Source: a bacterium (GTDB lineage: Bacteria; Patescibacteriota; Dojkabacteria; JAKAPS01; JAJZLI01). From it: 64,000 nucleotides of DNA. Numbering within the stretch: position 1 is the stretch's first letter; every line of letters starts with the position of its first letter. The notes beneath the pieces were generated by a model. That model worked only from the letters and a program-made list of their open reading frames with translations. It was not told the DNA's origin and did not search any database. The position numbers and the translations under genes are program-made. Positions 1-58,003 of the stretch are shown here, one piece after another. The stretch covers positions 4,722 through 68,721 of the forward strand of contig JAJZWL010000005.1 in assembly GCA_021846685.1 (NCBI GenBank). The letters run 5' to 3'.

Positions 1-2367
1 TGCAACTGGATCACCTACTTGAGTTCCTAGTTTTGTTACTGATTGAGGGTCTATTGCTTCCACAAAAGCTCCATTAAATTGTGCATGCCCACCAATTCTT
101 GTTGTTGAAAATAATTTATATGCAGCAGAATCCTTTGGTATAATAACTTGCCCATTTTGTTGGACATTAAATACGAAAGCTTTATTCTGAGTAGCTTTAC
201 TAGCCGTAACCCAAACCTGCATCTTTCCTTGCTCGATAAGTGTTTTTGTCGCAATAACTCTAGTATTTGTCATATTTGATATATTAAAAACAACATCTCC
301 TTTTGAATTATATCCTGTGTTAGATCCCCACTGTAAGCCTAATTCATTTCCAGTATCTTTCCCTGGGGCATTATTATTGTTAAACCAATGATTTCTTTGA
401 ACAGGAGTATTTCCGGCTCTTACTGCATTATGTATAGATGTTCCTCCTGAGTTAACATAAGCAGTTGTTTGTTTGGTATATATCCCTTCTTTTTTTAAAT
501 ATTGTATAGCACTCTTTGTAAGAGTTCCATTTTTGTTTAAAGGAACTTCCCGATATTGTTTCTCATTTACTAAAATTTCGGCAAAATGCCCTTTCGGATT
601 AATACGTATAGATGCATCATGCATATAAGTAGTCTTTTTTATTTTTACTTGATTCCATTTATTTAATAGTCCTTCTAGAAAATCTTGTTTTATAACTCCA
701 TGCCTAATTGCCTCTTCATGATTCTCCATAAATTCTCTTGCTACTCCTTGAGCAATACTACCTACTGCAAGCCCTGTAATTAGATTCCAAGCCATTTGTC
801 TTGCTATTCTTCCTGTTTTTATTCCTTTAAATATTGAATCTTTTTGAGCCATATCTTCCTCAATTGACCTAACTGCTTCTCCAGTTTTATCATTGAGTAA
901 TTTTTCCATATTAAGATCTCCATCTTTATTTCCCAATACTTCATTAATATATTCTGTATTATCAGTAGATATTAATTTAGACTGAACATACTTAACATAC
1001 CAATCGAGATCTGTAAATTCTTCTTGCATACTTTCTGGAGAAGAGAATAAAAATAAATCCATGGATCTATCTGCAGAGATTAATCTTCTTGCTCTATATT
1101 CTCCGATTATATTAACCATCCTATTAAAGGATTCTGGGTCAACCTCTTTATCTTTGAATTTATCAAATAATTCTGATAATTCTGATAAAGTATCTTTTAC
1201 AGGCATTAGCTCATATGCAGTTTTTTGTATTTGCTCTCTTCTTTTTCCTTCTATAGTATTTAATCTTCCAGAAGAAACATCTCTCATATGCATTTGCCTA
1301 TCTCTTTTTATTCTTTGTTTTTCTTTTCCTGTAGCAAGTAGAGAACTGGCCACAGCTGCAGCTCCAAAAGAACCTATTGTTGCGGCTTTTGAAGAAATAA
1401 CACTAAAAGCAACTCTTCCAATAACTGAGAAAGCACTAGCTACAACAGTCTCATTTACTAATTTCCCAGCAATCTTGCGATTTTTTATATTTTCCAATAA
1501 TCTATCTGTCTTACTGTATTCAACTCTTGTGACAGATAAATCTTTTGCTATACCTAAATTAATTACTATTAAATTTCTTATCTCTTCTACTGATTTTCCG
1601 TGTTCTATTAATAATTTTATTTGATCTATGTATTTATCTATATTATCTTCAAATTTTTCAAAATTTGCATGAGTGCCTCCTTTTAAGGAAGATGTTTCAA
1701 ATAATTCTGAAATTAATTGTCTTTTCTTATCTAAATATTCATCAGAAGCGATTTCTCCTGAAGATATCTTAAGAATAAGATCTCTAAGATCATTGGCACT
1801 TTTATTTTCTTTAGCAATGACAGTCTTTTCAATATCCTTTTCAGTTTTTATACTACCTGCTTCAAATCTATCTGCTGTTTTCCCGGCTGTAACTTTAAAC
1901 CTTTCTTCTTCTAACGCTTGTTTTTTATATTTTTGATATACAGTTCCTTCAAAGTATCCATATTTCCATATTTTTTTAAAAACTCCTGAAACTCCTTTAA
2001 GTTCATTTTTATTTGCAGTAAGTTTTTCTCTGGCCATATCATGGGCTCTTCTTTTTGTTTGGTCTGAAATATCTACAACATGTATGTTAATAGGATCTTC
2101 GGTGTTTGTTCCTTTATCTTTGTCTATTGAAACTAATGCAGTATTCGTAACAGGATCGATTGGTTCTATTTGCGTGCTATTTGATTTATCTTCTTTAGGA
2201 TTTGATGCATCTTCTGTATCTAAATTAGGATTAATAGCATCAGCTATAATCTCTTCAGCAGCCCTAATTACTTTAGCAGTTTCTGTTACGAATTCTGCCT
2301 CTCTAACTATTGCATCTATTTCTGCTTCAGAGGGAGATATGTTTAAAGTGTCGGGTACTGTACTCAT
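1..2367 (-). CDS. Large hypothetical protein, partial (3' end runs off the left edge of the window). It has an internal hydrophobic segment and a Gly/Asn/Thr-rich C-terminal region.
   Basis: Manual reverse-complement translation is stop-free from the ATG at 2367..2365 down to position 1; I checked the frame at 1-120 and around 2340-2370. The listed plus-strand ORFs 1061..1624, 1673..1936 and 2084..2389 are low-complexity antisense read-throughs of this gene. It is probably absent from the ORF track because it is truncated by the window edge. Confidence 0.55.
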   Translation of the reverse strand, partial: MSTVPDTLNISPSEAEIDAIVREAEFVTETAKVIRAAEEIIADAINPNLDTEDASNPKEDKSNSTQIEPIDPVTNTALVSIDKDKGTNTEDPINIHVVDISDQTKRRAHDMAREKLTANKNELKGVSGVFKKIWKYGYFEGTVYQKYKKQALEEERFKVTAGKTADRFEAGSIKTEKDIEKTVIAKENKSANDLRDLILKISSGEIASDEYLDKKRQLISELFETSSLKGGTHANFEKFEDNIDKYIDQIKLLIEHGKSVEEIRNLIVINLGIAKDLSVTRVEYSKTDRLLENIKNRKIAGKLVNETVVASAFSVIGRVAFSVISSKAATIGSFGAAAVASSLLATGKEKQRIKRDRQMHMRDVSSGRLNTIEGKRREQIQKTAYELMPVKDTLSELSELFDKFKDKEVDPESFNRMVNIIGEYRARRLISADRSMDLFLFSSPESMQEEFTDLDWYVKYVQSKLISTDNTEYINEVLGNKDGDLNMEKLLNDKTGEAVRSIEEDMAQKDSIFKGIKTGRIARQMAWNLITGLAVGSIAQGVAREFMENHEEAIRHGVIKQDFLEGLLNKWNQVKIKKTTYMHDASIRINPKGHFAEILVNEKQYREVPLNKNGTLTKSAIQYLKKEGIYTKQTTAYVNSGGTSIHNAVRAGNTPVQRNHWFNNNNAPGKDTGNELGLQWGSNTGYNSKGDVVFNISNMTNTRVIATKTLIEQGKMQVWVTASKATQNKAFVFNVQQNGQVIIPKDSAAYKLFSTTRIGGHAQFNGAFVEAIDPQSVTKLGTQVGDPVA

Positions 2368-2672
2368 ATGCTATTACTTAAATAAATAGTTCTAAAATTA
2401 ATCAAGACGTCACTTATTATTTGATCGATGTTTGCAATATTTTGAGATATAAATTTAACAAGCTCTTCATCTGTAGCATTTGTTTCAAATAAATTTTCAA
2501 ATTCATCCAATTTATCCTCAGGAAGTCTTTTTATAACTTCAGAATTAATAGCGTCTTCTATAAGATCATATAATTCATCTTTTATTCTCTTTATATATTC
2601 AGGCTTAGAGGTATCAAAACCTTTCTCTGCTATTAACTGATCTATAAAATTCTCTAAATTTGTTGCATTCAT
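2364..2672 (-). CDS. Hypothetical acidic protein, 102 aa.
   Basis: ORF track. Its TGA stop overlaps the ATG of the downstream gene in an ATGA arrangement at 2364-2367, which suggests translational coupling. Confidence 0.5.
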   Translation of the reverse strand: MNATNLENFIDQLIAEKGFDTSKPEYIKRIKDELYDLIEDAINSEVIKRLPEDKLDEFENLFETNATDEELVKFISQNIANIDQIISDVLINFRTIYLSNSI

Positions 2673-37743: not shown

Positions 37744-38469
37744 ATGGCTAAACTACTATTTGCAGGTTCTGGAGAGTTTACTGATTCTATGAATGACATA
37801 GATAGCTATCTCTGTTCTAGTATAAATTTAACTAAAATTATGATTATCCCAACTGCGGCAGGTAAGGAAAAAGATTTTCATAAATGGATAGATAATGGTA
37901 TTTCTCATTTTAAAAAAATTGGAAAGGAGGCTTTCGGGGGGGATTTAATATCAAGAGAGGATTATTTTAAAGATGAATATATTGCTCTTCTTGATAAAAC
38001 TAATTTTATATATTTTTCAGGTGGAGATCCTGAATATTTATTATCTTGTATTGAAAACACTCCATTTTTAGAAAAACTTTTGAGTAAATTAAAAGAGAAA
38101 GATTTTATTCTAGCAGGATCCTCAGCAGGAGCTATGATTATGGGAAGTTATACTCCTGTTAATATTTTAAATAGAATATTCTCTTCGAATAAAAAGGGGG
38201 TCTTTATTAGAGAGGCATTAGATCTAGGTCATTTTATAGTGATTCCTCACTTTAATAAAATTCCTAAAATATTAGAATTAAAATATATAAGTGAAAGAAT
38301 AATAAATAGTTTACCCGATATAACTATTGTGGGAATAGATGAAGATACCGCTATATTAACTGAAAATAATACAGAATTTAAAGTGTTAGGAAAAGGGAGT
38401 GTCTATATTATTAATGGTAATGCAAAGATAATTTCATATAAAAATTATGAAATATTTAATATAAAATGA
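37744..38469 (+). CDS. Peptidase S51 family (dipeptidase E / cyanophycinase-like).
   Basis: IYFSGGDPEYLL and ILAGSSAGAMIMG correspond to the conserved GGN..LL and nucleophile-Ser (G-x-S-A-G-A) regions of PepE-type enzymes. Confidence 0.65.
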   Translation: MAKLLFAGSGEFTDSMNDIDSYLCSSINLTKIMIIPTAAGKEKDFHKWIDNGISHFKKIGKEAFGGDLISREDYFKDEYIALLDKTNFIYFSGGDPEYLLSCIENTPFLEKLLSKLKEKDFILAGSSAGAMIMGSYTPVNILNRIFSSNKKGVFIREALDLGHFIVIPHFNKIPKILELKYISERIINSLPDITIVGIDEDTAILTENNTEFKVLGKGSVYIINGNAKIISYKNYEIFNIK

Positions 38470-40463
38470 AAAAATATTTTTACATAAATCAATTCTTAAT
38501 TATTCTTCTGTATATATATCTTTTTATATTTCCATACAGTTATATCCCTTTTTTTATTATTTTACTATTGATATTAATTACATTTTTATATACCGATGGT
38601 AAAATTTTAAAAAAAATTATTAATTTATTTTTTAAATATACAGAGAGTATAAGGCGAACTTTTTTTGCTACTTTTATTCCAATTTTACTTTTTATTGCAT
38701 ATTCTTTCCATAATTTGCTATTGTTATTCTATTTGATATCTATTTTGATACTATTATTTTACTTATTTTTGTTTATAAAGTCATTATTTATTCTAAAAAA
38801 GATAAATTTAAAGTTATCGGCAACTAATTTGCCTCAGGAAAAAAATTTAGAAAGTATATTCTCTAAATTACCCCTCAATATATTATATGTATGTAGTAAA
38901 AAAGAGGTATTTCAAGAGATTCAAGTTAGTCATACTTTAAAAGATAATATAGTAGATATTGTACATATTAATTATCCAGATATAATGATTACTGAAGTTG
39001 AAAATACATCTAAAAAGAAATATAAAAAATATTTATTTATAGACTCATCTTTTGATTATTATGATAATATTATGCAGATTTTAAAGGATAATAAAGATAT
39101 TTCATTTAAATTTATTTTCAGAAATCCTTATAGATTTATGAATTTATCTTTAGTTTTATTAAAAATAGAATCCAATGATAAAAATCTTTTAAAAAGAATA
39201 AATACGTTATTTTCTGATAATCTACAAAAAGATCTAATATTTGATAATAAAAAATTATCAAAGGTATTTCATCCAATTGTCGACTCAGGGAATATAATTG
39301 ATGTAGTTGAATCAAGTTCCGAAATAAATGTACCCTTAAAAATATTAGATTCTAATAAAGGTGTATTAATGGGAATTAATCGTGGTAATAGAATTTATAT
39401 TTCACCTAAACATTTTTTATCACACAGTTATTTAATAGGAAAAACAGGGTCGGGTAAAAGTGTTTTTATGAGTAATATTATTATTCAAAATATAAAGAAA
39501 ATGAATCCATGTATTGTAATTGATCCTCATAATATTGCGGATATAATTTTGTCAAAATTGAATAAAAAAGATTTGAAGAATGTAGTTTTGGTCGATTTTT
39601 CTGATCTTAAATATTCTATTAATCCATTAGATTTAAGTAGTAGTAAAAATCCTTATCTTTTGATAGATAATACCGTATCTATATTTAAAGATCTTTATTC
39701 TGAATTTTGGGGTCCTCAAAGTGATGATATTTTAAGAAGAAGCCTGTCGGCGCTAATTTTTTCAGAAGAAGATTATTCTATTCTAGATTTAGAAGAATTT
39801 CTTACAGATGATCATTTTAGATTAAAAGTTCTTTTTTCTGTACATGATAGAGATACTTTAGATTATTTTGATAATATTTTTTCTAAATGGGATAATAGAT
39901 CTAGGTCAGAGAGAATCTCTCCTATTTTGAATAAAATAGGAAGACTAAAGTCTGATAAGTTTATATCACAATTTGTCTCTGGAAATAAAGATCTGCTAGA
40001 TTTAAAAACTCTTGTAAAAGAGGGCAAAAGTGTCATTTTTTCTGTATCAAAGAAGTTTGTAGGAGAAGAGAACTCTAAATTTTTAGGATCTCTTGTTATA
40101 AATCAAATTAGGAATGTTATTCTTCAAGAAGATATTAGCAGGCATATATACTTATATATAGACGAATTCCAGAATTTTATATCAGATAACTTCTTGTTTA
40201 TCTTTTCAGAATCAAGAAAATATAACTTATCAATATTTATAGCAAATCAATATATAGACCAAATAGATCAAAAGTACCTTTCTAGTATAATAGAGAATTG
40301 TTCTAATTTTTATGTAATGGATATAGGAGAAAATTCGAAGAAATATTTATCTCAAGTTCTAAAATTTGAGATACCTTCGAAAATATCTGAACATATTATT
40401 TATGCTAAAAATGGCAATAACCCTATCTATACAATTTATTCTTATGTTAAAAAGCATGGTTGA
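38466..40463 (+). CDS. Membrane-anchored FtsK/HerA/VirD4-superfamily P-loop ATPase, resembling a type IV coupling protein.
   Basis: An N-terminal block of about 120 aa with 3-4 TM helices. Walker A LIGKTGSGKS. Walker B IYLYIDEFQNF. About 665 aa, with TraG/VirD4-like architecture. Confidence 0.5.
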   Translation: MKKYFYINQFLIILLYIYLFIFPYSYIPFFIILLLILITFLYTDGKILKKIINLFFKYTESIRRTFFATFIPILLFIAYSFHNLLLLFYLISILILLFYLFLFIKSLFILKKINLKLSATNLPQEKNLESIFSKLPLNILYVCSKKEVFQEIQVSHTLKDNIVDIVHINYPDIMITEVENTSKKKYKKYLFIDSSFDYYDNIMQILKDNKDISFKFIFRNPYRFMNLSLVLLKIESNDKNLLKRINTLFSDNLQKDLIFDNKKLSKVFHPIVDSGNIIDVVESSSEINVPLKILDSNKGVLMGINRGNRIYISPKHFLSHSYLIGKTGSGKSVFMSNIIIQNIKKMNPCIVIDPHNIADIILSKLNKKDLKNVVLVDFSDLKYSINPLDLSSSKNPYLLIDNTVSIFKDLYSEFWGPQSDDILRRSLSALIFSEEDYSILDLEEFLTDDHFRLKVLFSVHDRDTLDYFDNIFSKWDNRSRSERISPILNKIGRLKSDKFISQFVSGNKDLLDLKTLVKEGKSVIFSVSKKFVGEENSKFLGSLVINQIRNVILQEDISRHIYLYIDEFQNFISDNFLFIFSESRKYNLSIFIANQYIDQIDQKYLSSIIENCSNFYVMDIGENSKKYLSQVLKFEIPSKISEHIIYAKNGNNPIYTIYSYVKKHG

Positions 40464-40905
40464 CAAGTTGATACTTACAATATATTCGAAAATAGACTTT
40501 TATCCAGAAGCAATAAGGATTAAATCAGATATTGAAAATTCAGGATATCTTTGTTTTTTGCCATTTGAAGAAGGGTATAATTCTCTGCTAGTAGGTAAAA
40601 ATGGGGATATTGATTATAAATTGTTATCTAAAATGAAAAATAAAAATAATTATTTAAAAAAAGAATTTGAATATATAAATTCTTCTCATGCTATTTTGCT
40701 TTTAAATTATAGTTGGAATAATATTGACGGATATATAGGCTCTAATATGTTTTTGCAAATTGGTATTGCATATATATTAAAAAAGAAAATATTTATACTA
40801 AATACTTTAAATGATTCTCAAATAGGATTAAAAAATGAAATAATGTTAATGAATCCTATTGTTCTTAAGGGAAATGTAAATAAAATAAAAAATTACCTGT
40901 TTTAG
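40457..40905 (+). CDS. Small hypothetical protein, possibly with a nucleoside 2-deoxyribosyltransferase-like (Rossmann/flavodoxin-like) fold.
   Basis: The internal ATG at 40457 overlaps the upstream stop (ATGGTTGA). The track ORF 40366..40905 would overlap the ATPase by about 100 bp. SHAILLLNYS..NIDGYIGSNMFLQIGIAYILKKKIFIL weakly resembles the NDT-family core. Confidence 0.3.
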
Positions 40906-40907
40906 TT

Positions 40908-41636
40908 ATGTATAGCAATATTAGTAATAAAGATTTAGAATTATTAACTTTTATAAATGAACATCCTTGCCTTTCAAGTCAGGATATAAGTCTTTTTTTC
41001 GATATTAAACTTTTTACGCTAAGAACTAGGCTAAGAGTTCTTTGTGAATATAAATTTATATCTTTTTTAACAGTGTCTAGTTTTAAGGGGTTTAAATATT
41101 ATTTTTCTACCAAAAAGGGCAATAAAATGATAATAAAAGCTTCTAATAAATTTAATAAATTTGATACTTCTGAAAAAAAGCTTTTTTTACGTCATATTAT
41201 TGAATCTAATGACTTTTTTATACATTTGAAGAAAATTTCATTAGATAATGGATATAATTTTTCAGATTGGGTATCGGATGTTAACACTGCCATACTATTT
41301 AAATATAATGGTTCTTCATATAAATTAATTCCAGATGGATACTGTATGTTTAAAGATATCAATATATATTTAGAGTTAGATAGATCTACTGAGTCATTTT
41401 TCAAGATATTAAGAAAAATAGAAGTATATTCTAATTTTTATCTTTCTATGGGATATAAAAAATATTTTTCTGAATTTCCTATGGTTATATTTATATTTCC
41501 TGATTTAAAAAGGGCTAAATTTATTCAAGATAAAGTAGAGGCTTATATAACGTTAAAAAAATATAAAGAGGAGCTAAATTTTTTCTATTTTTTTGATAAA
41601 TTAGACTTTTATAAAAATACTGAGAAATATTTATGA
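40908..41636 (+). CDS. Replication-relaxation family protein (putative plasmid or ICE relaxase/regulator with an N-terminal winged helix).
   Basis: The N-terminus LELLTFINEHPCLSSQDISLFF..LRTRLRVLCEYKFIS is winged-helix-like. The C-terminal LIPDGYCMFKD..IYLELDRSTES matches the PDa..ElDrGTE signature of the Replic_Relax family. Confidence 0.5.
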   Translation: MYSNISNKDLELLTFINEHPCLSSQDISLFFDIKLFTLRTRLRVLCEYKFISFLTVSSFKGFKYYFSTKKGNKMIIKASNKFNKFDTSEKKLFLRHIIESNDFFIHLKKISLDNGYNFSDWVSDVNTAILFKYNGSSYKLIPDGYCMFKDINIYLELDRSTESFFKILRKIEVYSNFYLSMGYKKYFSEFPMVIFIFPDLKRAKFIQDKVEAYITLKKYKEELNFFYFFDKLDFYKNTEKYL

Positions 41637-41648
41637 TATAATTTTATT

Positions 41649-42437
41649 ATGAATAAAGAGTATGTACTAATAACAGGAGCAACTAGCGGAATAGGGTATG
41701 AATTAATGCTTCTTTTTGCCAAAAATAAATATAATTTACTCTTAGTATCCAGAAACAAAGAAAAACTTAAAAATATAAAAACAAAAATTGAAAAAAAATA
41801 TAAAATCCATATTGAATATTTAGATATAGATCTATCAGAGTCTGATTCTGCAGAAAAAGTTTATTATTTTATTACAAACAATAAATTAAATATCTCAATA
41901 TTAATTAATAATTCGGGGTTCGGACTAAAAGGGAAATTTGAAGAGAATGATCTTCAAAAATATGAAGAAATGGTTAATCTTAATATTTTAACATTAACTA
42001 AATTGACCTATTTGGTACTTCAAGACATGAAAAAGAGAAAGAAAGGTAAAATTTTAAATCTTGCTTCAGTAGCTGCATTTCTTCCTGGTCCATATATGAG
42101 TGTTTATTTTGCTACGAAAGCGTATGTGCTTTCGTTCTCGGAGGCTTTGTTTTTTGAAAATTCTGCTGATAATATTACTATTACAGCTTTATGTCCTGGA
42201 TCTACTAAAACAAACTTTGCCTCAGTTGCAGGATTCAAAAGTAAAGATTCTTTTAATAAAAATGCAATGAGTGCTTCTCAAGTAGCTTTGATTGGATATA
42301 AAGGGTTAATGAAAGGAAAACGAGTTGTTATAGCAGGAGGGTTAAATAACTTTTCTGTATTTTTCATTAAATTTATTCCAAATCGATTAATTGGCAAAAT
42401 GATTCTCAGGTTTAATAATTCAAGTTCAGCTAATTAA
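41649..42437 (+). CDS. Short-chain dehydrogenase/reductase (SDR).
   Basis: The N-terminal ITGATSGIG is the NAD(P)-binding motif. NNSG and the catalytic YFATKAY (Y-x-x-x-K) are present. Confidence 0.85.
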   Translation: MNKEYVLITGATSGIGYELMLLFAKNKYNLLLVSRNKEKLKNIKTKIEKKYKIHIEYLDIDLSESDSAEKVYYFITNNKLNISILINNSGFGLKGKFEENDLQKYEEMVNLNILTLTKLTYLVLQDMKKRKKGKILNLASVAAFLPGPYMSVYFATKAYVLSFSEALFFENSADNITITALCPGSTKTNFASVAGFKSKDSFNKNAMSASQVALIGYKGLMKGKRVVIAGGLNNFSVFFIKFIPNRLIGKMILRFNNSSSAN

Positions 42438-42470
42438 ATCAGTTATAATCTAGTTTAGTATTATAAATTT

Positions 42471-43088
42471 TTAGAGTAATTTAGATTGCTCTTTGAAAAA
42501 AATTTTTACTTCATCCCAACTAACATTAGATATAAGATTGATTAAAGTATGATCATTGTCTGCCATTTCAAAAAAAGTTAAAGATTTTATGTAATGAAAC
42601 TGATTAATATCATTTTCACCAAATTTTTTTGAAAATATATTAAATAGATCTGTAATTTTATAGTAATTTTTCAAAATGAAATATAAATCATAAAAATCTT
42701 TTTTTAAACCTCTGCTACCAATTGCTATTATTTTCATAAGGGCAATATCTTTTATTGAAGCTAAATAAATATTATTATATATTTCCTTTTTATCTATAAG
42801 TGGATATTGATAAAGAAAAAAACTTATTTCACACTCATTGGAAAAACCTCGTAAACTTCCTTCTGTAATTGTAACTTTCTTTAATTTAAGCACTCTATTT
42901 AGCGATTTTAATAGCATATCACTATCAAATGTATTATGAGTAAAAAAATCTAAATCATAAGAGATTCTATGTCCAATTTGCAATGAGAGAGCTGTTCCAC
43001 CAGCAAGGTAAAAATTATTTATAGTTTTTATATCTTTTAGTAAGGCCAGAGCATTTTTTGCTCCGGTGTTGATTGTCTTGTCAAACAT
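42471..43088 (-). CDS. Nucleotidyltransferase toxin of the AbiEii/AbiGii (DUF1814) family.
   Basis: FYLAGGTALSLQIGHRISYDLDFFT matches the conserved GGTAL...R.S.DiDf core of AbiEii. Confidence 0.6.
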   Translation of the reverse strand: MFDKTINTGAKNALALLKDIKTINNFYLAGGTALSLQIGHRISYDLDFFTHNTFDSDMLLKSLNRVLKLKKVTITEGSLRGFSNECEISFFLYQYPLIDKKEIYNNIYLASIKDIALMKIIAIGSRGLKKDFYDLYFILKNYYKITDLFNIFSKKFGENDINQFHYIKSLTFFEMADNDHTLINLISNVSWDEVKIFFKEQSKLL

Positions 43089-53225: not shown

Positions 53226-53339
53226 GATATATGATATTATTTAGATTATTAAAAAAGTTTTTATTTGCCTTTCTTATTCTCTTATTTGTAGTTCCTTTTG
53301 TTATATCTAATAATCAAAAATCTATTGAAGTTCATGCTG

Positions 53340-53706
53340 CAACTTCATGAAACTATCTAATTAAAGATATAAGTAATTATTATGTGGCTAAGGAGAATGG
53401 ATCTCAATATTCTGGTAATAATTTCAATTATAAATTATAAGACTGGAAAATCACTGTCGTAAGATCCAATATTAAAAAATTTACAACTTTCAATATATGC
53501 AATGGTAGTAAAAGAAAAATTTGGAAAAGAAATTGATTCTTTAAACTTGCAATTTGTTGATGAAGGGGTTAATCTGAGTATGAATATAGAGAAATGAGAT
53601 ATTGATAAAAGTAGAGGAGAACTGATACAATTACTATCTTTGATGGACGAAGGTAAGATAATCGCAAATCCATCATATGTGTGTAATTTTTGTGATTATA
53701 TAAATT
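53340..53706 (+). pseudogene. Decayed partial duplicate of the 3' end of the upstream helicase-nuclease gene.
   Basis: Manual translation gives ..YKTGKSLS*DPILKNLQLSIYAMVVKEKFGKEIDSLNLQFVDEGVNLSMNIEK*DIDKSRGELIQLLSLMDEGKIIANPSYVCNFCDYINY.., which parallels IVDYKTGSS..NLQLGLYSILVKEKFPNDIKNLKLLFIDEGKEINIDYQK..IEKIRDLEVKATPSFACNYCEYRS of the intact gene. It has in-frame stops. Confidence 0.5.
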
Positions 53707-54813
53707 ATGTTACAAAGTATAAAAGGAAAAATATTATTAGGGTTAGCATTAATATCTTATGTGTTTGTTTTTTCAAATATATTCGTAGGTACTCCTGTAT
53801 ATGCAGCTAGTGGTACAATAAATATTTCTTGTGCGCAAATTAACGCAGCTTATAAGAATGCTAAATTTGATGGTCCATTATATAGTACAACTATTAATGG
53901 AGAAAAAATTAATTATGTAAATAATCGTAATGGTCATCCTAGTGGATCTTATCTTAAGCTTGGGTCTATTGATGGTAATGTAAATACTTCAACAAAAAAT
54001 AGCTTTTTAAGTCCAAAATTTATTTGTGTGTTTGGTAATAATGGATCGGGGAATACTTTAACAGTGTCTAGTAGTGCTACTATATATTTGTATCCCACAT
54101 ATGGATCATACAATAATAATTATAATTTTTATGCAATATATCCTAAAAATAATGTTTGCTCTGCTATTGCCAATGCTATTAAAAATAATAAAAAAACCGT
54201 TGATAATAATATACACATAACTAATAATGCATTTAATCTCCCTGCTAATGCTAATAAGATAGGCCAAATAATATATAAGAATGGAAGTGTTGTTGGTGGG
54301 TGTCCTATTGCGCAATCAGACGTTAACAATAGTGCTTTGCAAATTTATATAACACCTGTTAATCAAACAGAACCAGGCAATACCTATGGAGTATATTCTT
54401 CATCTTTAATTATACCACCACCACCTTCTCATGGAGGAGCATATTCAGCGCAAAAAGCATGTGTTGGTAGTGGAATTGGAGTTGGAGCAAGTCGGAATTG
54501 TCAAATTTGTGTAAGAAAAGGAATTAATAGTGGATATAATTATGTATATACAGATTTTGGATGTATAAATACATCTATTTCTGGAGTCATAAATTTTGTA
54601 TATAGATTATTTCTGGTAATAGCATTTATGATTGCACTGGCTGTTATTATATTTGCAGGGTACTTGATTATGGTATCTGGAGGAGATCCAGATCAGCTTA
54701 ATAGAGGAAAGAGTCTTCTTACTAAAGCTATAATAGGGTTACTTGTTATTGTATTTGCATATGTTATGCTTACTACAATAGGAACTATATTTGGAATTAA
54801 ATTTTTAGCATAA
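53707..54813 (+). CDS. Pilin-like paralog 1: signal peptide, a Cys-containing ectodomain of about 270 aa, and a C-terminal VirB2/TrbC-like double-helix module.
   Basis: The signal peptide ends ..GTPVYA-AS. The C-terminus FLVIAFMIALAVIIFAGYLIMVSGGDPDQLNRGKSLLTKAIIGLLVIVFAYVMLTTIGTIFG is the module shared by the six following genes. Confidence 0.6.
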   Translation: MLQSIKGKILLGLALISYVFVFSNIFVGTPVYAASGTINISCAQINAAYKNAKFDGPLYSTTINGEKINYVNNRNGHPSGSYLKLGSIDGNVNTSTKNSFLSPKFICVFGNNGSGNTLTVSSSATIYLYPTYGSYNNNYNFYAIYPKNNVCSAIANAIKNNKKTVDNNIHITNNAFNLPANANKIGQIIYKNGSVVGGCPIAQSDVNNSALQIYITPVNQTEPGNTYGVYSSSLIIPPPPSHGGAYSAQKACVGSGIGVGASRNCQICVRKGINSGYNYVYTDFGCINTSISGVINFVYRLFLVIAFMIALAVIIFAGYLIMVSGGDPDQLNRGKSLLTKAIIGLLVIVFAYVMLTTIGTIFGIKFLA

Positions 54814-54814
54814 A

Positions 54815-55150
54815 ATGAATAATATAAAATTTATAAAACCGATATTAGCTCAATGTACTGGAACTTCTTGTTCAGTATCAATTAATAGTCCTTTTGGTAA
54901 TATATTAAATTCTGGTAGTATATTCTCGTCATTATTTAATCTTTTCTATTTTGTTGTAGGGATAGTATTTATTGTTATTATTATCACATCAGGAATAAGA
55001 ATTATTGTATCTAATGGGAATAGAGAAAGAGTTGCAAAAGCTCAAACCACGTTGACGTATGCAGTAATAGGATTAGTATTGATAGTATTTGCAGGAATAA
55101 TAATTAAAATTTTATCTACTGCATTACCTTTATTTAATGGCCTTATATAA
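54815..55150 (+). CDS. Pilin-like paralog 2, 111 aa.
   Basis: A short N-terminal region followed by the shared module FVVGIVFIVIIITSGIRIIVSNGNRERVAKAQTTLTYAVIGLVLIVFAGIII. It starts 1 nt after the previous stop. Confidence 0.55.
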   Translation: MNNIKFIKPILAQCTGTSCSVSINSPFGNILNSGSIFSSLFNLFYFVVGIVFIVIIITSGIRIIVSNGNRERVAKAQTTLTYAVIGLVLIVFAGIIIKILSTALPLFNGLI

Positions 55151-55624
55151 ATGAAATATATAAAAATAAATTTATTCGCATTATTGATTTTAAGTATATT
55201 ATTTATTTTTTTAAATAATACACATGTATTTGCATCAAGCAATATTATTAAAAATAATACATATGAAAGATCTCAAATAATATATCCACAGACAGCATTA
55301 TTCGTTCCATCCAATGGTGGGGGACCTATTCCTCCTACTACTCTAAATAGCTCAGGTGTACAAAATCCATTAGTTGGTTCTTCCTTAAATAGTCCTTCAG
55401 GGATTGTTCCTTTTATCTTCAGTATAATATTACCAATACTTTATGGTATTGTTGGAGTTATTGTACTCGGTCTATTCTCTTATGCAGGATTTTTACTTAT
55501 GGTTTCTAATGGAGATACTAACAAGGTTGCTAAGGCTAAATCTGTATTGACTGGAGCTATTATAGGTGCTAGTATTATTTTACTAGCATATGTTATAAGT
55601 TTGGTATTAGTGCATACTGTATGA
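55151..55624 (+). CDS. Pilin-like paralog 3, 157 aa.
   Basis: Signal peptide (..THVFA-SSN) and a Pro/Ser-rich linker, then the module GVIVLGLFSYAGFLLMVSNGDTNKVAKAKSVLTGAIIGASIILLAYVISL. Confidence 0.6.
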   Translation: MKYIKINLFALLILSILFIFLNNTHVFASSNIIKNNTYERSQIIYPQTALFVPSNGGGPIPPTTLNSSGVQNPLVGSSLNSPSGIVPFIFSIILPILYGIVGVIVLGLFSYAGFLLMVSNGDTNKVAKAKSVLTGAIIGASIILLAYVISLVLVHTV

Positions 55625-56082
55625 AGATAAGAAGTCTTTTATTTATATTCCTTTTTTTGGCATCTTTTGCTATTTTTTTTCATGTTAATAATTATGCTCA
55701 AGCAACCGGAGCAAGTTCTTGTACAACATTCGGAGGAACACTAGTAAATGGTGTGTGTACTTTTACTCCAAAGACTAATATCCCAACAACTTGTTCTACT
55801 ATTGCAAGTTCAATTGGGAATATAATTGTATTACTATTTTCTGTTGCTGGATTGGCATTTTTTGTAATGTTAATTATAGCTGGAATTAAAATGACTACTG
55901 CAGGAGGGGATAAAGAAAAGATAGCTTCTGCTCAAACAGCTATTATTCATGCCATTTTAGGCATAGTTATTGTAGCTGCATCCTTTTTAATAGTAGAACT
56001 TATTTCTGGCTTATTAGGGGTAGGAGGGACACTTTTTACTGCAAATCCAATAAACTCTAATTGTACTATTAATTCAAAGTAA
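55621..56082 (+). CDS. Pilin-like paralog 4, 153 aa.
   Basis: ATGA overlap with the previous gene. Signal peptide (..NNYAQA), a Cys-containing mature N-terminus, then the module LAFFVMLIIAGIKMTTAGGDKEKIASAQTAIIHAILGIVIVAASFLIVELISGLLGVGG. Confidence 0.6.
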   Translation: MKIRSLLFIFLFLASFAIFFHVNNYAQATGASSCTTFGGTLVNGVCTFTPKTNIPTTCSTIASSIGNIIVLLFSVAGLAFFVMLIIAGIKMTTAGGDKEKIASAQTAIIHAILGIVIVAASFLIVELISGLLGVGGTLFTANPINSNCTINSK

Positions 56083-56088
56083 TTTATT

Positions 56089-56418
56089 ATGAATTTAAAT
56101 CATGCATCAACTCCACATTTATATGAATTAGTAGTTTATTTTGGCAAAATAATAGGTCTTTTGTATGATTTTGTTGCTGTAGTATTATTTATAATATTAA
56201 TCGTAAATGGCTTTAGATATTTATTTAGTGGTGTAAATCCAGAATTAAAGCAAAAGGCAAATAAAGGATTTATGTATGCAGTAATAGGTTTAGTTGTTAT
56301 AGTTTTGGCATATATAATAATAGCCTTTATTGGAAGCTTTGTTTCTAAATCTTTCACTACAGGATTTGTAAGTGGATCTGCATTGCAATTTAATTTACAA
56401 AATGTTGCCTCAAAGTAA
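56089..56418 (+). CDS. Pilin-like paralog 5, 109 aa, with no obvious signal peptide.
   Basis: The module VAVVLFIILIVNGFRYLFSGVNPELKQKANKGFMYAVIGLVVIVLAYIIIAFIGSF sits near the N-terminus, followed by a tail of about 30 aa. Confidence 0.5.
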   Translation: MNLNHASTPHLYELVVYFGKIIGLLYDFVAVVLFIILIVNGFRYLFSGVNPELKQKANKGFMYAVIGLVVIVLAYIIIAFIGSFVSKSFTTGFVSGSALQFNLQNVASK

Positions 56419-56448
56419 AAATCTTGACTAATTAACCCTATAATATAC

Positions 56449-56477
56449 TTGACTAATGCTTGTTTTTAAGGTATTAT
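56449..56477 (+). promoter_or_regulatory. Promoter-like TTGACT-17-TATTAT immediately upstream of pilin-like paralog 6.
   Basis: Read directly. The implied transcription start is within a few nt of the ATG at 56487, which would mean a leaderless or very short leader. Confidence 0.3.
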
Positions 56478-56486
56478 GAGACTATC

Positions 56487-56915
56487 ATGCGATTTAGTAA
56501 ATTTTTTGAAATTGTCTATATATTTATAGCACTATTTGTTTTAGGTGCTAGTCCAATTTTTGCATCTGCTGCGTATATCCCTTATCCTGTTTTGCATTCA
56601 ACTCTATCTACAAATCCTAATGGAGTTATTAATACTCTTTTTAGATTTGGGTTTATAGTCATAGGTTTGATATTTTTTTTAATTATCATAATAGCTGGTA
56701 TAGAATGGATGGTTGGATCTGGAGATGAAAAGAAAAGAGACAGTGCCAAATCTAGGCTGTCAAATGCCTTTATAGGTATTGTTATTGTAGCTGGATCATT
56801 TTTAATTGTTGAAATAGTAGGGTCTTTGTTTGGGATAAGTTCTATCTTTTCTAAGAATTTATTTACAAATAATTGTCCTTCTTCTTCTGTAGGAAGTATC
56901 TGTTTAAATAAATAG
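56487..56915 (+). CDS. Pilin-like paralog 6, about 142 aa from the ATG at 56487.
   Basis: The track ORF starts at a TTG at 56460; the ATG at 56487 (MRFSKFF..PIFA-SAAY signal peptide) is preferred. A TTGACT-17-TATTAT promoter-like sequence at 56449-56477 ends about 9 nt before this ATG. The mature N-terminus YIPYPVLHSTLSTNPNGVI is followed by the module IVIGLIFFLIIIIAGIEWMVGSGDEKKRDSAKSRLSNAFIGIVIVAGSFLIVEIVGSLFG and a two-Cys tail. Confidence 0.6.
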   Translation: MRFSKFFEIVYIFIALFVLGASPIFASAAYIPYPVLHSTLSTNPNGVINTLFRFGFIVIGLIFFLIIIIAGIEWMVGSGDEKKRDSAKSRLSNAFIGIVIVAGSFLIVEIVGSLFGISSIFSKNLFTNNCPSSSVGSICLNK

Positions 56916-56985
56916 TTGCATTCTTGTTAGATTTTATATATATTTTATAGTATAATAACAAGTTATATTAAGGAGGTGAGAATAA

Positions 56986-57420
56986 ATGAAAATAATAAAT
57001 AAGATTTCAGGTTTTATTTTAGCCTTAGGTGCGTTTGCATTATTTACAGTTCCTGTATTTGCTCAATCTTCATATATCCCTGGTGCAATCCAAAGTTCAA
57101 CATTGTCTACAAATCCTAATGGAATAATAACATTAGTAATTAATTTTATTTTTATAATAGTAGGATTAATTTTCTTTGTAATGTTAGTAATTGGAGGAGT
57201 TCAGTGGGTAACTGCTGGAAGTGCTGAGGACAAGAGAACAGAAGCTCAAGGTAGAATAGTAAATGCTATTATAGGAGTTGCAATAGTTGCAGGTTCTTAT
57301 TTGGTAGTTGAGATAGTATCTTCTCTATTAGGAATAGGTGGAATATTTGGTCAAAGTCTATTTTCCACAACAGCTTGTGCTAACGGAGGAACTGTTTGTT
57401 TGAATGGTTCTTTGAAATAA
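56986..57420 (+). CDS. Pilin-like paralog 7, 144 aa.
   Basis: A strong SD AAGGAGGTGAG lies 6 nt upstream. Signal peptide (..VPVFA-QSSY). The mature N-terminus YIPGAIQSSTLSTNPNGII is nearly identical to paralog 6. The module is IVGLIFFVMLVIGGVQWVTAGSAEDKRTEAQGRIVNAIIGVAIVAGSYLVVEIVSSLLGIGG, followed by a two-Cys tail. Confidence 0.65.
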   Translation: MKIINKISGFILALGAFALFTVPVFAQSSYIPGAIQSSTLSTNPNGIITLVINFIFIIVGLIFFVMLVIGGVQWVTAGSAEDKRTEAQGRIVNAIIGVAIVAGSYLVVEIVSSLLGIGGIFGQSLFSTTACANGGTVCLNGSLK

Positions 57421-57452
57421 TTTTGTTTTATAAAAATTTATATATCAAAAGT

Positions 57453-57483
57453 AAAGAAAGGAAGCTTAGTTGCTTCCTTTCTT
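57453..57483. terminator. Bidirectional rho-independent terminator between convergent genes.
   Basis: A perfect 12-bp stem AAGAAAGGAAGC / GCTTCCTTTCTT with a TTAGTT loop, flanked by A/T-rich runs on both sides. It lies between the stop of 56986..57420 (+) and the stop of hsp20 (-). Confidence 0.6.
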
Positions 57484-57492
57484 ATATTTATA

Positions 57493-57903
57493 TTATTTAA
57501 TAGAAATGCTTTTTGGCTTAGCCTGTTCTGATTTAGGAAGGGTTAAAGATAATACTCCATTTTTATATTCAGCATCAGCTTTATCACTCACTACGCTAGA
57601 TGGTAGTGTGATTGATCTTGCTATGCTTTGAGTTTTAATTTCTTTTTTATAGTATTTCTTCCCTTTATCTTCTTTTTCTTCATTTGCTTCAGCCTTTATA
57701 GTTAAATTATCTCCAACTACAGTTACAGTAAAATCTGATTTTTCAAATCCTGGAGCCTTCATTTTTACAACTACATTATCATTCTCTTCATAAATATCAA
57801 TTGATCCTGCTCCTGTTTGAAAAAAAGAATCTAAATCAAAATCATCTTCATCAAATACCCTAGGCATTCCCCAGTTGTATGGTGTCCATCTTGTTATTGC
57901 CAT
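57493..57903 (-). CDS. Small heat-shock protein of the Hsp20 / alpha-crystallin family.
   Basis: It has an alpha-crystallin domain (..IDIYEENDNVVVKMKAPGFEKSDFTVTVVGDNLTIKAE..YKNGVLSLTLPK). The predicted start MAITRW is preceded by an AGGAGGTGAAAA SD on the minus strand. Confidence 0.85.
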   Translation of the reverse strand: MAITRWTPYNWGMPRVFDEDDFDLDSFFQTGAGSIDIYEENDNVVVKMKAPGFEKSDFTVTVVGDNLTIKAEANEEKEDKGKKYYKKEIKTQSIARSITLPSSVVSDKADAEYKNGVLSLTLPKSEQAKPKSISIK

Positions 57904-58003
57904 AATTTTTTCACCTCCTTTATTATCACTCTAATGTTAACTCTGATAATATTTTACAATGACTCTTTTTATTTGTCAAGACTTGTTTGCTATAATGTAA
58001 TGC

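What the first reader, a model, noticed from the sequence alone, without database searches (positions are those of the whole stretch)
53707..57420. Array of seven VirB2/TrbC-like pilin paralogs with hypervariable N-terminal ectodomains
Seven consecutive same-strand genes, several coupled by 1-4 nt spacing or overlap, encode proteins of 109-368 aa that share one C-terminal module. The module is a hydrophobic helix ending in a small-residue turn (AGIEWMVGSGD, GGVQWVTAGSAED, AGIKMTTAGGD, YLIMVSGGD). A short charged loop follows (K/R-x-x-A-K/Q). Then comes a Gly/Ala/Ile/Val-rich helix (AIIGxxIVxxSxLxVEIxxxLLG). In length and pattern this matches mature VirB2/TrbC conjugative pilins; compare the Agrobacterium VirB2 core ..GIVAIGISWMFGRASLGLVAGVVGGIVIMFGASFLG. 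Five of the seven have Sec-type signal peptides. The region between signal peptide and module ranges from almost nothing to a Cys-containing domain of about 270 aa. Paralogs 6 and 7 share a near-identical mature N-terminus (YIP....STLSTNPNG) and a two-Cys tail. This looks like a diversified cassette of T4SS-type pilin subunits carrying different tip or adhesin domains. A VirD4-like ATPase and a relaxase-like gene lie 13 kb away in the same window, but no VirB4/B6/B11 is seen here.
Basis: partly seen in the sequence, partly recalled or inferred. Interest (0 to 1): 0.85.

Follow-up and report, generated by a model that had tools for sequence, protein, structure and literature searches.

The report
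Seven-gene VirB2-like pilin array, Patescibacteria
This is a real cluster of seven divergent type IV secretion "pilin" genes of a kind already described in ultrasmall Patescibacteria, so it is a well-preserved example of a known and still functionally unsolved feature, not a new one.

Summary
Seven same-strand genes (53707-57420) share a C-terminal two-helix membrane hairpin. Six of the seven pass Pfam's own threshold for PF18895 (T4SS_pilin); the third falls just below it. The match to classical TrbC/VirB2 (PF04956) is sub-threshold.

The kind is already published. Arrays of 2-11 VirB2-like pilin genes were catalogued in Patescibacteria (441 arrays; PMC12102498). One such array is essential in Southlakia epibionticum (PMC10633639). 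They were first noted in 2018 (bioRxiv 10.1101/258137).

What this locus adds:
- The array sits in a housekeeping context (AddA, the pilins, HSP20, SbcDC). That context, with 6-7 pilin genes, is conserved in 8 related loci (4 with seven genes, 4 with six). Each gene is orthologous by position in the three seven-gene species tested.
- The last gene (p7) is the best conserved and carries one of only two full Shine-Dalgarno sites among 46 window genes, so it is the likely major subunit.
- The ectodomains of p1 and p3 are hypervariable (7-21% identity between orthologues, against 58-86% for the hairpin). Gene p1 looks mosaic, with a pseudogene footprint of imported DNA just upstream.
- All cysteines lie in segments predicted to be outside the cell.

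No VirB4 or VirB6 gene lies within reach of the window. Whether a pilus is made is unproven. Novelty: new member of a known kind. Interest is about 0.3.

The parts
53707..54813 (+). p1: pilin paralogue, 368 aa. Signal peptide 1-33, Cys-rich ectodomain of about 255 aa (8 Cys), hairpin module 289-368.
   Evidence: PF18895 36 bits over residues 289-357. Orthologues keep C42, C252, C265, C268, C286 and the motif Y-x-YTDFGC-[IV]-N-T-S, while the middle of the ectodomain is hypervariable. Homologues cover only 33-45% of the query, so the first ~200 aa are unique.
54815..55150 (+). p2: pilin paralogue, 111 aa. Truncated leader, conserved C-x4-C plus SPFG motif, hairpin module 33-111.
   Evidence: PF18895 38.3 bits. 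Starts 1 nt after the p1 stop. Same-position orthologues in L011, L013 and L015.
55151..55624 (+). p3: pilin paralogue, 157 aa. Signal peptide, short Pro/Gly/Ser-rich ectodomain, hairpin module 81-157.
   Evidence: PF18895 22.5 bits, below threshold, but 96 bits to the local module HMM. Orthologues are 141-252 aa and strain variant L003 has a 256-aa form with a Cys domain. Ectodomain identity between orthologues is 7-21%.
55621..56082 (+). p4: pilin paralogue, 153 aa. Signal peptide, 3-Cys N-terminal segment, hairpin, C-terminal tail with 1 Cys.
   Evidence: PF18895 36.2 bits. Its start overlaps the p3 stop as ATGA. Cys at 34, 46, 58 and 148, conserved in orthologues. Between the window and strain L003, 7 of 9 amino-acid changes fall in residues 27-51 and none in the module.
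56089..56418 (+). p5: pilin paralogue, 109 aa. No signal peptide and no Cys; hairpin 14-90 plus a 19-aa tail.
   Evidence: PF18895 36.8 bits. Positional orthologues in three species.
56487..56915 (+). p6: pilin paralogue, 142 aa from ATG 56487. Signal peptide, YIP..STLSTNPNG N-terminus, hairpin, two-Cys tail.
   Evidence: PF18895 41.3 bits and TrbC PF04956 21.7 bits, sub-threshold. 47% identical to p7. Promoter-like TTGACT-17-TATTAT at 56449-56477. More distant relatives have six genes, with one gene where this lineage has p6 and p7; a later duplication is an inference, not tested.
56986..57420 (+). p7: pilin paralogue, 144 aa; candidate major subunit. Signal peptide 1-27, hairpin 45-117, two-Cys tail.
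   Evidence: PF18895 40.5 bits. AF2 model has helices 44-76 and 81-114 at pLDDT 80-88. It is the most conserved position, with module identity 77-86% between species and no amino-acid change against strain L003. A full Shine-Dalgarno AAGGAGGTG lies at 56970-56978, one of only two in 46 window genes, and is also seen before the last pilin gene in L013, L015, L021 and L025.
57454..57483 (.). Bidirectional terminator-like hairpin closing the array, shared with the convergent HSP20 gene.
   Evidence: 12-bp stem with 5 GC pairs, followed by a T-rich tail on both strands.
53231..53720 (+). Recombination footprint upstream of p1. It holds an orphan signal-peptide ORF (53231-53350) and a pseudogene copy of an AddA C-terminus (53430-53720, two in-frame stops) that runs into the p1 start.
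   Evidence: The translation parallels the end of the resident AddA. The remnant is 59% identical to the AddA C-terminus of the more distant relative L021 but only 41% to the resident AddA. The p1 signal peptide is also L021-like (score 77 against 25-35 for close relatives), whereas the p1 module is closest to L011 and L013.

Best explanation
The locus is a chromosomal array of seven anciently diverged paralogues of the Patescibacteria VirB2-like pilin family (Pfam PF18895).

Proposed mechanism, with the status of each step:
1. Membrane insertion (inferred from sequence). Each product is inserted into the cytoplasmic membrane as a helical hairpin with both ends outside and the K/R-rich loop inside. 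Five use a cleavable Sec signal peptide; p2 and p5 probably use their first helix.
2. Outside segments (inferred from sequence). The N-terminal and C-terminal outside segments are stabilised by disulfides.
3. Assembly (inferred from homology and from published genetics in Saccharibacteria). The organism's monoderm-type T4SS, encoded elsewhere in the genome, takes these subunits out of the membrane. It builds them into a surface filament or conduit used in contact with a host bacterium.
4. Division of labour (inferred here). p7 is the abundant major subunit: it has its own promoter region, a rare perfect Shine-Dalgarno site and the highest conservation. p1-p5 form a translationally coupled operon without Shine-Dalgarno sites and are low-abundance minor subunits. 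p1 and p3 carry large, fast-evolving, Cys-rich ectodomains that would act as the exposed host-binding parts. These ectodomains are renewed by recombination with DNA from related lineages.
For: Family.
- PF18895 hits for all seven, six above the gathering score. 23 of 23 related proteins hit PF18895 and 3 hit TrbC.
- The family is large: 85,577 cluster representatives at E<=1e-3.

Topology.
- Two hydrophobic helices flank a 17-residue loop with 2-5 K/R.
- The AF2 hairpin has pLDDT 80-88.
- All Cys lie in segments predicted to be outside, in even numbers: 8, 2, 0, 4, 0, 2, 2.

Link to a T4SS.
- In the Collierbacteria relative L027, a nine-gene array lies within 8 kb of a PrgI/VirB3-like gene and a CagE_TrbE_VirB (VirB4) gene.
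- In the literature, pilin genes lie near virB4 in 1,135 of 1,948 assemblies and 441 arrays were described (PMC12102498). The pilin series inside the S. epibionticum T4SS cluster is essential (PMC10633639).

Non-redundant paralogues.
- Each window gene best matches the same-position gene in L013 and L015 (7 of 7) and in L011 (6 of 7).
- The synteny MurJ-GroES-GroEL-AddA-[6-7 pilins]-HSP20-SbcD-SbcC-SpoIID-..-SmpB-T4CP is kept down to about 73% GroEL identity.

Major versus minor subunits: Shine-Dalgarno survey and its conservation, gene coupling and per-region conservation.

Ectodomain turnover: p1 and p3 ectodomains are 7-21% identical between orthologues against 58-86% for the module. Supporting observations are the long p3 in strain L003, the clustered substitutions in the p4 ectodomain, and the AddA remnant with a mosaic p1.
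Against: - No VirB4, VirB3 or VirB6 gene was found from about 7.5 kb before the window to about 12 kb after it. The two nearby ATPases are coupling-protein-like, not VirB4-like.
- Similarity to experimentally characterised VirB2 is not significant. Fold searches are uninformative for a hairpin.
- No T4SS pilus has been seen in any Patescibacterium, and monoderm T4SSs normally lack pili (PMC12857230, PMC10633639).
- Expression levels are inferred only from sequence signals. The Shine-Dalgarno site before the last gene is absent in L011.
- The p1 ectodomain could not be modelled (pLDDT about 33), so an adhesin fold is not shown.
Confidence: 0.6

Rival explanations
1. The seven hairpin proteins are not pilus subunits. 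They co-assemble as fixed, non-interchangeable parts of a membrane-embedded hetero-oligomer, a stalk or channel collar of the monoderm T4SS, and never form an extended filament.
For: - Strict positional orthology of seven distinct paralogues over a wide evolutionary span.
- Natural single polypeptides carry 4-17 tandem modules joined by short linkers (P0025, P0026, P0027, P0030, P0036). This shows that modules work side by side.
- Gram-positive-type T4SSs lack pili and none has been observed in Patescibacteria (PMC12857230).
Against: - The terminal gene has expression signals unlike the others, which suggests unequal stoichiometry typical of a major and minor subunit filament.
- Large variable ectodomains and cleaved signal peptides fit surface display.
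- Fused modules could also polymerise, because the N and C termini of VirB2-type pilins lie next to each other.
Confidence: 0.25
2. The paralogues are interchangeable alternative pilins. They are kept for antigenic or host-range variation, as proposed for the VirB2 paralogues of Bartonella and Anaplasma, and are used one at a time or in shifting mixtures.
For: - Low identity between paralogues, 18-47%.
- Strain-level ectodomain differences and recombination footprints.
- This is the reading offered in PMC12102498.
Against: - Each position is separately conserved across species, with its own length class, Cys pattern and leader type. That argues for specialised roles rather than redundancy.
- There are no long identical DNA tracts that would indicate recent gene conversion.
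- Genes p1-p5 are translationally coupled and so co-expressed.
Confidence: 0.1
3. The proteins are small two-helix membrane proteins unrelated to type IV secretion, and the Pfam name is misleading.
For: - The PF18895 annotation rests on remote similarity, not on experiment.
- No T4SS core gene is adjacent here.
Against: - Independent sub-threshold hits all point to conjugation pilin-like families: TrbC/VirB2 and the Mycoplasma ICE pilin-like NF045849.
- The array lies next to PrgI and VirB4 in L027 and in over a thousand assemblies (PMC12102498).
- The pilin series within the S. epibionticum T4SS cluster is essential (PMC10633639).
Confidence: 0.05

Closest known systems
Patescibacteria VirB2-like pilin arrays. 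Sources: Quinonero-Coronel et al. 2025, PMC12102498; the essential pilin series SEML1_0006-0019 region of Southlakia epibionticum, Wang et al. 2023, PMC10633639; the signal-peptide protein array of TM7x, McLean et al., bioRxiv 10.1101/258137.
   Same: - Same Pfam family (PF18895).
- Tandem same-strand genes; the count of 7 falls within the published range of 2-11.
- Low identity within the array: 18-47% here, against an average of 25% and a maximum of 54% published.
- Signal peptides and a Patescibacteria host.
   Different: - This array is not in a T4SS cluster. It sits between DNA-repair and chaperone genes, and no VirB4 gene was found from about 7.5 kb before the window to about 12 kb after it.
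- Not found in the three sources I read: gene-by-gene positional orthology, a distinct major-subunit candidate, ectodomains of 50-255 aa fused to two positions, and a recombination footprint.
Agrobacterium VirB2 (T-pilin; PDB 8cue, 8exh) and RP4 TrbC (Pfam PF04956).
   Same: - Signal peptide followed by two hydrophobic helices joined by a short basic loop, with termini on the outside.
- The hhalign alignment is in register around G-I/V-x-W-M/V.
- p6 and two orthologues give sub-threshold PF04956 hits.
   Different: - Scores lie below the PF04956 gathering threshold and the hhalign probability is 2.4%.
- The host is monoderm.
- There is no evidence of head-to-tail cyclisation. Instead there are Cys pairs in the tails, and in p4 a Cys pattern that could staple the N-terminal segment to the C-terminal tail.
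- Some members carry large N-terminal domains unknown in classical VirB2.
Multiple VirB2 paralogues of Anaplasma and Bartonella T4SSs.
   Same: Tandem amplification and divergence of VirB2-type genes in a host-dependent bacterium. PMC12102498 cites them as the analogy.
   Different: Those paralogues are thought to be variants for immune evasion. Here each paralogue is separately conserved by position across species, which points to division of labour.
Type IV pilus (T4P) major and minor pilin sets. This is a functional analogy only.
   Same: One abundant subunit plus a co-transcribed set of low-abundance subunits, some carrying extra domains that form the adhesive tip.
   Different: The protein fold and assembly machine are unrelated. 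T4P pilins have a single N-terminal helix plus a globular head, need a prepilin peptidase and use a PilB-type ATPase.

Membership tests
Pfam PF18895 T4SS_pilin | Score at or above the curated gathering threshold (26.6 bits). | tested here: met
   p1 36.0, p2 38.3, p4 36.2, p5 36.8, p6 41.3 and p7 40.5 bits. p3 scores 22.5 bits, below threshold, but is clearly homologous through the local module HMM at 96 bits. 23 of 23 related proteins match at E<=0.01.
Pfam PF18895 T4SS_pilin | Architecture: an optional signal peptide followed by two hydrophobic helices separated by a short charged loop. | tested here: met
   Hydropathy segments and loop composition. AF2 helices 44-76 and 81-114 in p7.
Patescibacteria VirB2 array (sensu PMC12102498) | Two or more pilin genes in tandem, or separated by one non-pilin gene. 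| tested here: met
   Seven contiguous genes.
Patescibacteria VirB2 array (sensu PMC12102498) | High divergence within the array (published average 25%, maximum 54% identity). | tested here: met
   Pairwise local identity of 18-47%.
Patescibacteria VirB2 array (sensu PMC12102498) | The host genome belongs to Patescibacteria and also encodes VirB4. | tested here: inconclusive
   The lineage is supported only by homologue record titles: 'Patescibacteria group bacterium' and 'Candidatus Collierbacteria'. Cluster look-ups gave no names. VirB4 was not found from about 7.5 kb before the window to about 12 kb after it.
TrbC/VirB2 pilin (Pfam PF04956) | Score at or above the gathering threshold (27.9 bits). 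| tested here: not met
   Best in the window is p6 at 21.7 bits (E 2.4e-4); p5 scores 12.1 bits. Three of 23 relatives match at E<=0.01, best 2.8e-6.
TrbC/VirB2 pilin (Pfam PF04956) | Significant sequence or profile similarity to structurally solved pilins (VirB2, TraA). | tested here: not met
   The profile search against PDB gave 0 hits at E<=10. hhalign against VirB2 gave probability 2.4% and against F TraA gave nothing.
TrbC/VirB2 pilin (Pfam PF04956) | A fold match that singles out conjugative pilins. | tested here: inconclusive
TrbC/VirB2 pilin (Pfam PF04956) | Encoded together with T4SS core genes (VirB3, VirB4, VirB6). | tested here: not met
   Not met for this locus. It is met in the distant relative L027, where PrgI and CagE_TrbE_VirB lie within 8 kb.
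TrbC/VirB2 pilin (Pfam PF04956) | Polymerises into an extracellular pilus in a VirB4-dependent way. | not testable with these tools
   This needs microscopy, biochemistry or genetics. It is unproven for any Patescibacterium (PMC12857230).

The most novel reading that the evidence does not exclude
The seven paralogues are obligatory, non-redundant parts of one heteromeric T4SS surface filament in a monoderm. p7 is the major pilin. The minor pilins p1 and p3 are VirB2 hairpins fused directly to disulfide-rich host-binding ectodomains. They would replace the missing VirB5- or PrgB-type adhesins, and their specificity would be re-tooled by importing ectodomain DNA from other lineages. The naturally fused multi-module 'poly-pilins' elsewhere in the family would be the covalent version of the same heteromer.
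Probability: 0.3. Interest if true: 0.6.

Novelty: new member of a known kind. Interest (0 to 1): 0.3.

Why it matters
Patescibacteria make up a large share of bacterial diversity. They appear to live attached to host bacteria, and their T4SS, including its pilin series, is essential in the one species tested. What that T4SS builds and transports is unknown.

This locus does not reveal a new system. It does give a clean comparative case: the same 6-7 genes in the same order in 8 related loci. That case argues for a division of labour among the pilin paralogues rather than simple redundancy. It nominates a major subunit and two candidate host-recognition subunits, and it shows how their exposed parts turn over. 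All of these are testable in the genetically tractable Saccharibacteria.

Tried and rejected
- A profile search of PDB sequences with the p7 alignment gave no hit. hhalign against Agrobacterium VirB2 and F TraA was not significant. The VirB2 sequence was recalled from memory and checked against PDB 8cue. The TraA sequence was recalled from memory and not checked.
- The AF2 model of p1 has mean pLDDT 45 and about 33 in the ectodomain, so no fold search was attempted and no adhesin fold can be claimed.
It was repeated with the p7-centred alignment.
- The look-up of the first window protein was not on record. Cluster look-ups gave no organism names.
- I considered whether the 665-aa or the 810-aa ATPase is VirB4. 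Both look like coupling proteins of the TraD/TrwB type, so this was rejected.
- I considered alternative genetic codes because of the in-frame TGA codons upstream of p1. This was rejected, because long ORFs throughout the window are intact under table 11 and the segment is a degraded duplicate.
- I considered recent gene conversion among the paralogues. Shared DNA is only 60-85% identical over about 50 nt in the helix-2 region.
- The tRNA and Rfam scans of the window were empty.

Full report
**1. Observation**

The seven + strand ORFs exist as described. Their sizes are 368, 111, 157, 153, 109, 142 (151 from an upstream TTG) and 144 aa. The gaps between them are 1, 0, -4, 6, 68 and 70 nt. A MAFFT alignment of the seven shows one shared C-terminal module: a hydrophobic helix, a small-residue turn, a K/R-rich loop of about 17 residues, and a Gly/Ala/Ile/Val-rich helix. 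Five proteins have classical signal peptides. p2 has a truncated leader and p5 has none. An HMM built from the module finds exactly these seven genes in the 64-kb window, so the cluster is not a chance run of hydrophobic ORFs.

**2. Family**

- Against Pfam, all seven hit PF18895 (T4SS_pilin). Six score 36-41 bits, above the 26.6-bit gathering score. p3 scores 22.5 bits.
- TrbC/VirB2 (PF04956) is hit only below threshold (p6 21.7 bits).
- NCBIfam gives sub-threshold hits to the Mycoplasma ICE 'pilin-like conjugal transfer protein' NF045849.
- Across four species, 23 of 23 proteins hit PF18895 and 3 hit TrbC, best E 2.8e-6.
- A full HMMER scan of 1.84 billion cluster representatives with the seven-paralogue profile finds 85,577 at E<=1e-3 and 18,567 at E<=1e-10. 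This is a very large family.
- One p1 homologue is named 'pilin [Patescibacteria group bacterium]' by NCBI.

**3. What is already known**

- PMC12102498 searched 3,035 Patescibacteria genomes with PF18895 and PF04956. It reports 441 arrays of 2-11 pilin genes in 383 assemblies, with mean identity of 25% within an array (maximum 54%). The arrays are most abundant in Microgenomatia and Saccharimonadia. The authors compare them to the VirB2 paralogues of Bartonella and Anaplasma.
- PMC10633639 shows that the pilin series inside the S. epibionticum T4SS cluster is essential.
- The first mention is an array of 4-6 small signal-peptide proteins related to VirB2 in TM7x (bioRxiv 10.1101/258137).

The finding is therefore a member of a published kind.

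**4. Context**

- The window is about 26% G+C with no tRNA or Rfam hit, and it is chromosomal.
- The gene order is glycosyltransferases, MurJ, GroES/GroEL, an AAA_14 ATPase, an AddA-like helicase-nuclease, the array, a convergent HSP20, SbcD, SbcC and SpoIID.
- The 665-aa ATPase at 38466-40463 and an 810-aa ATPase about 9 kb downstream of the array (outside the window; L007 14960-17392) are both coupling-protein-like. They carry TraG-D_C and TrwB_AAD_bind domains, give sub-threshold TIGR03743 TraD hits and match TrwB 1e9r at E 9e-5. They are not VirB4.
- No VirB4, VirB3 or VirB6 gene lies from about 7.5 kb before to about 12 kb after the window.
- PMC12102498 notes that T4CP homologues are mostly far from virB4. 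It also notes that in Microgenomatia only 22.6% of VirB3 homologues lie near virB4, so some dispersal of T4SS genes is not unusual there.
- In the most distant relative recovered (Candidatus Collierbacteria, L027), a 2+7 pilin array is followed within 8 kb by a PrgI-family gene and a CagE_TrbE_VirB gene. This supports the functional link to a T4SS.

**5. Comparative anatomy (added here)**

- Exact copies of the locus occur in several metagenomes and in GCA_021843725.1.
- The same synteny with 6-7 pilin genes occurs in 8 related loci: seven genes in L011, L013, L015 and L018, and six in L020, L021, L022 and L025 (L019 is a second copy of the L011 lineage). The last pilin in these relatives is 54-76% identical to p7. 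The synteny holds down to about 73% GroEL identity.
- Each window gene best matches the same-position gene in L013 and L015 (7 of 7) and in L011 (6 of 7). The paralogues therefore predate these species and are individually maintained.
- More distant relatives have six genes, with one gene where this lineage has p6 and p7. Together with their 47% identity, this suggests that the p6/p7 pair arose by a later duplication; this was not tested.
- Region by region, the hairpin is 58-86% identical between orthologues. The p1 and p3 ectodomains are only 7-21% identical and differ greatly in length (368/281/253/254 aa and 157/252/242/141 aa). The short N-termini of p4, p6 and p7 are 39-65% identical. 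p7 is the best conserved overall.
- p1 orthologues keep five Cys and a Y-x-YTDFGC-[IV]-N-T-S motif next to helix 1.
- All Cys of the seven proteins lie in segments predicted to be outside the cell, in even numbers. p4 has three in its N-terminal segment and one in its C-terminal tail, all conserved. This would tie the two ends together. That is an inference, reminiscent of the cyclised T-pilin.

**6. Expression signals**

- In this genome Shine-Dalgarno sites are nearly absent. Of 46 genes examined, only p7 and the neighbouring HSP20 have a full AAGGAGGTG.
- The motif recurs before the last pilin gene in L013, L015, L021 and L025, but not in L011.
- p6 has a TTGACT-17-TATTAT box.
- p1-p5 are translationally coupled.
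- A terminator-like hairpin closes the array.

I infer that p7 is the major product and p1-p5 are minor ones. No expression data were available.

**7. Turnover of the exposed parts**

- The 480 nt between AddA and p1 hold an orphan signal-peptide ORF and a degraded copy of an AddA C-terminus with two in-frame stops.
- That remnant is closer to the AddA of the more distant lineage L021 (59%) than to the resident AddA (41%). The p1 leader is also L021-like, whereas the p1 hairpin is closest to the near relatives. Gene p1 therefore looks mosaic, consistent with import of a new 5' part by recombination.
- In a strain variant (L003/L006), p3 has a 256-aa form with a Cys domain, and on contig L003 it follows AddA directly. 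The changes in p4 cluster in residues 27-51, and p7 is unchanged.
- The L003 junction rests on a contig end and needs confirmation.

**8. Structure**

- AF2 gives p7 a hairpin (helices 44-76 and 81-114, pLDDT 80-88) with low-confidence tails.
- Sequence or profile links to solved pilins are absent or insignificant.
- The p1 ectodomain could not be modelled.

**9. Interpretation**

- Best supported: a set of VirB2-like T4SS subunits with a division of labour (p7 major; p1-p5 minor; p1 and p3 as variable exposed parts). They would be assembled by a T4SS encoded elsewhere.
- The main rival is a membrane-embedded heteromer rather than a filament. It is favoured by the positional orthology and by natural fusion proteins with 4-17 tandem modules.
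- Simple antigenic-variation redundancy fits the data less well.
- An origin unrelated to T4SS is unlikely.

**10. Verdict**

This is a new member of a known kind. Interest is modest (0.3). It lies in the comparative clues about subunit roles, not in the existence of the array.

Noticed in passing
window 53231-53720: An orphan 39-aa signal-peptide ORF and a degraded duplicate of an AddA C-terminus (two in-frame stops) lie between the intact AddA gene and p1. The remnant and the p1 leader resemble the more distant lineage L021 more than the resident genes.
   Followed up: partly
window, all genes; SD sites at 56970-56978 (+) and 57912-57920 (-): Shine-Dalgarno sites are almost absent in this genome, and many genes have a TATAAT-like box just before the start codon. 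Only p7 and the divergent HSP20 gene carry a perfect AAGGAGGTG.
   Followed up: partly
proteins P0025 (1775 aa, 17 modules), P0026, P0027, P0028, P0030, P0036 from the representative search: The family includes single polypeptides made of 4-17 tandem pilin hairpin modules joined by short linkers ('poly-pilins'). I did not see these mentioned in the papers read.
   Followed up: partly
L003 1-2740 and L006 (JGI metagenomes), against window 55100-57500: Strain variant of the same species. p3 is a 256-aa form with a Cys-containing ectodomain and follows AddA directly on contig L003 (p1 and p2 absent there). p4 differs by a 2-aa indel and by substitutions clustered in its ectodomain. p6 is intact but was missed by the public gene call.
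   Followed up: partly
L007 14960-17392 (about 9 kb downstream of the array, just outside the window): An 810-aa coupling-protein-like ATPase (DUF8128 on record in the pre-computed Pfam hits; DUF87, TrwB_AAD_bind and TraG-D_C in my own scan) is a conserved neighbour in every related locus that reaches that far. It always follows SmpB, with a small 69-95-aa ORF called between them in four of the loci.
   Followed up: partly
window 38466-43088: A second coupling-protein-like ATPase (665 aa), a Replic_Relax protein and an AbiEii toxin gene lie together in a stretch of about 23% G+C. This may be the remnant of an integrated mobile element.
   Followed up: no
L027 4747-19839 (Candidatus Collierbacteria): Nine pilin genes (2+7, split by two polyprenyl synthase genes) are followed by three large proteins without Pfam hits (938, 597 and 760 aa). 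After these come a PrgI-family gene and a VirB4-like gene.
   Followed up: partly
window 1-2672 and L028 4028-7407: A 1024-aa protein with no Pfam match runs off the start of the window on the minus strand, next to a DUF5663 gene (2364-2672).
   Followed up: no
window 10700-37700: A long run of glycosyltransferase genes (GT2, GT4), a methyltransferase-GT fusion and membrane proteins suggests a large cell-surface glycan locus. A PIN-domain toxin gene (13150-13575), preceded by a small ORF with a faint PrlF-antitoxin hit, is embedded in it.
   Followed up: no
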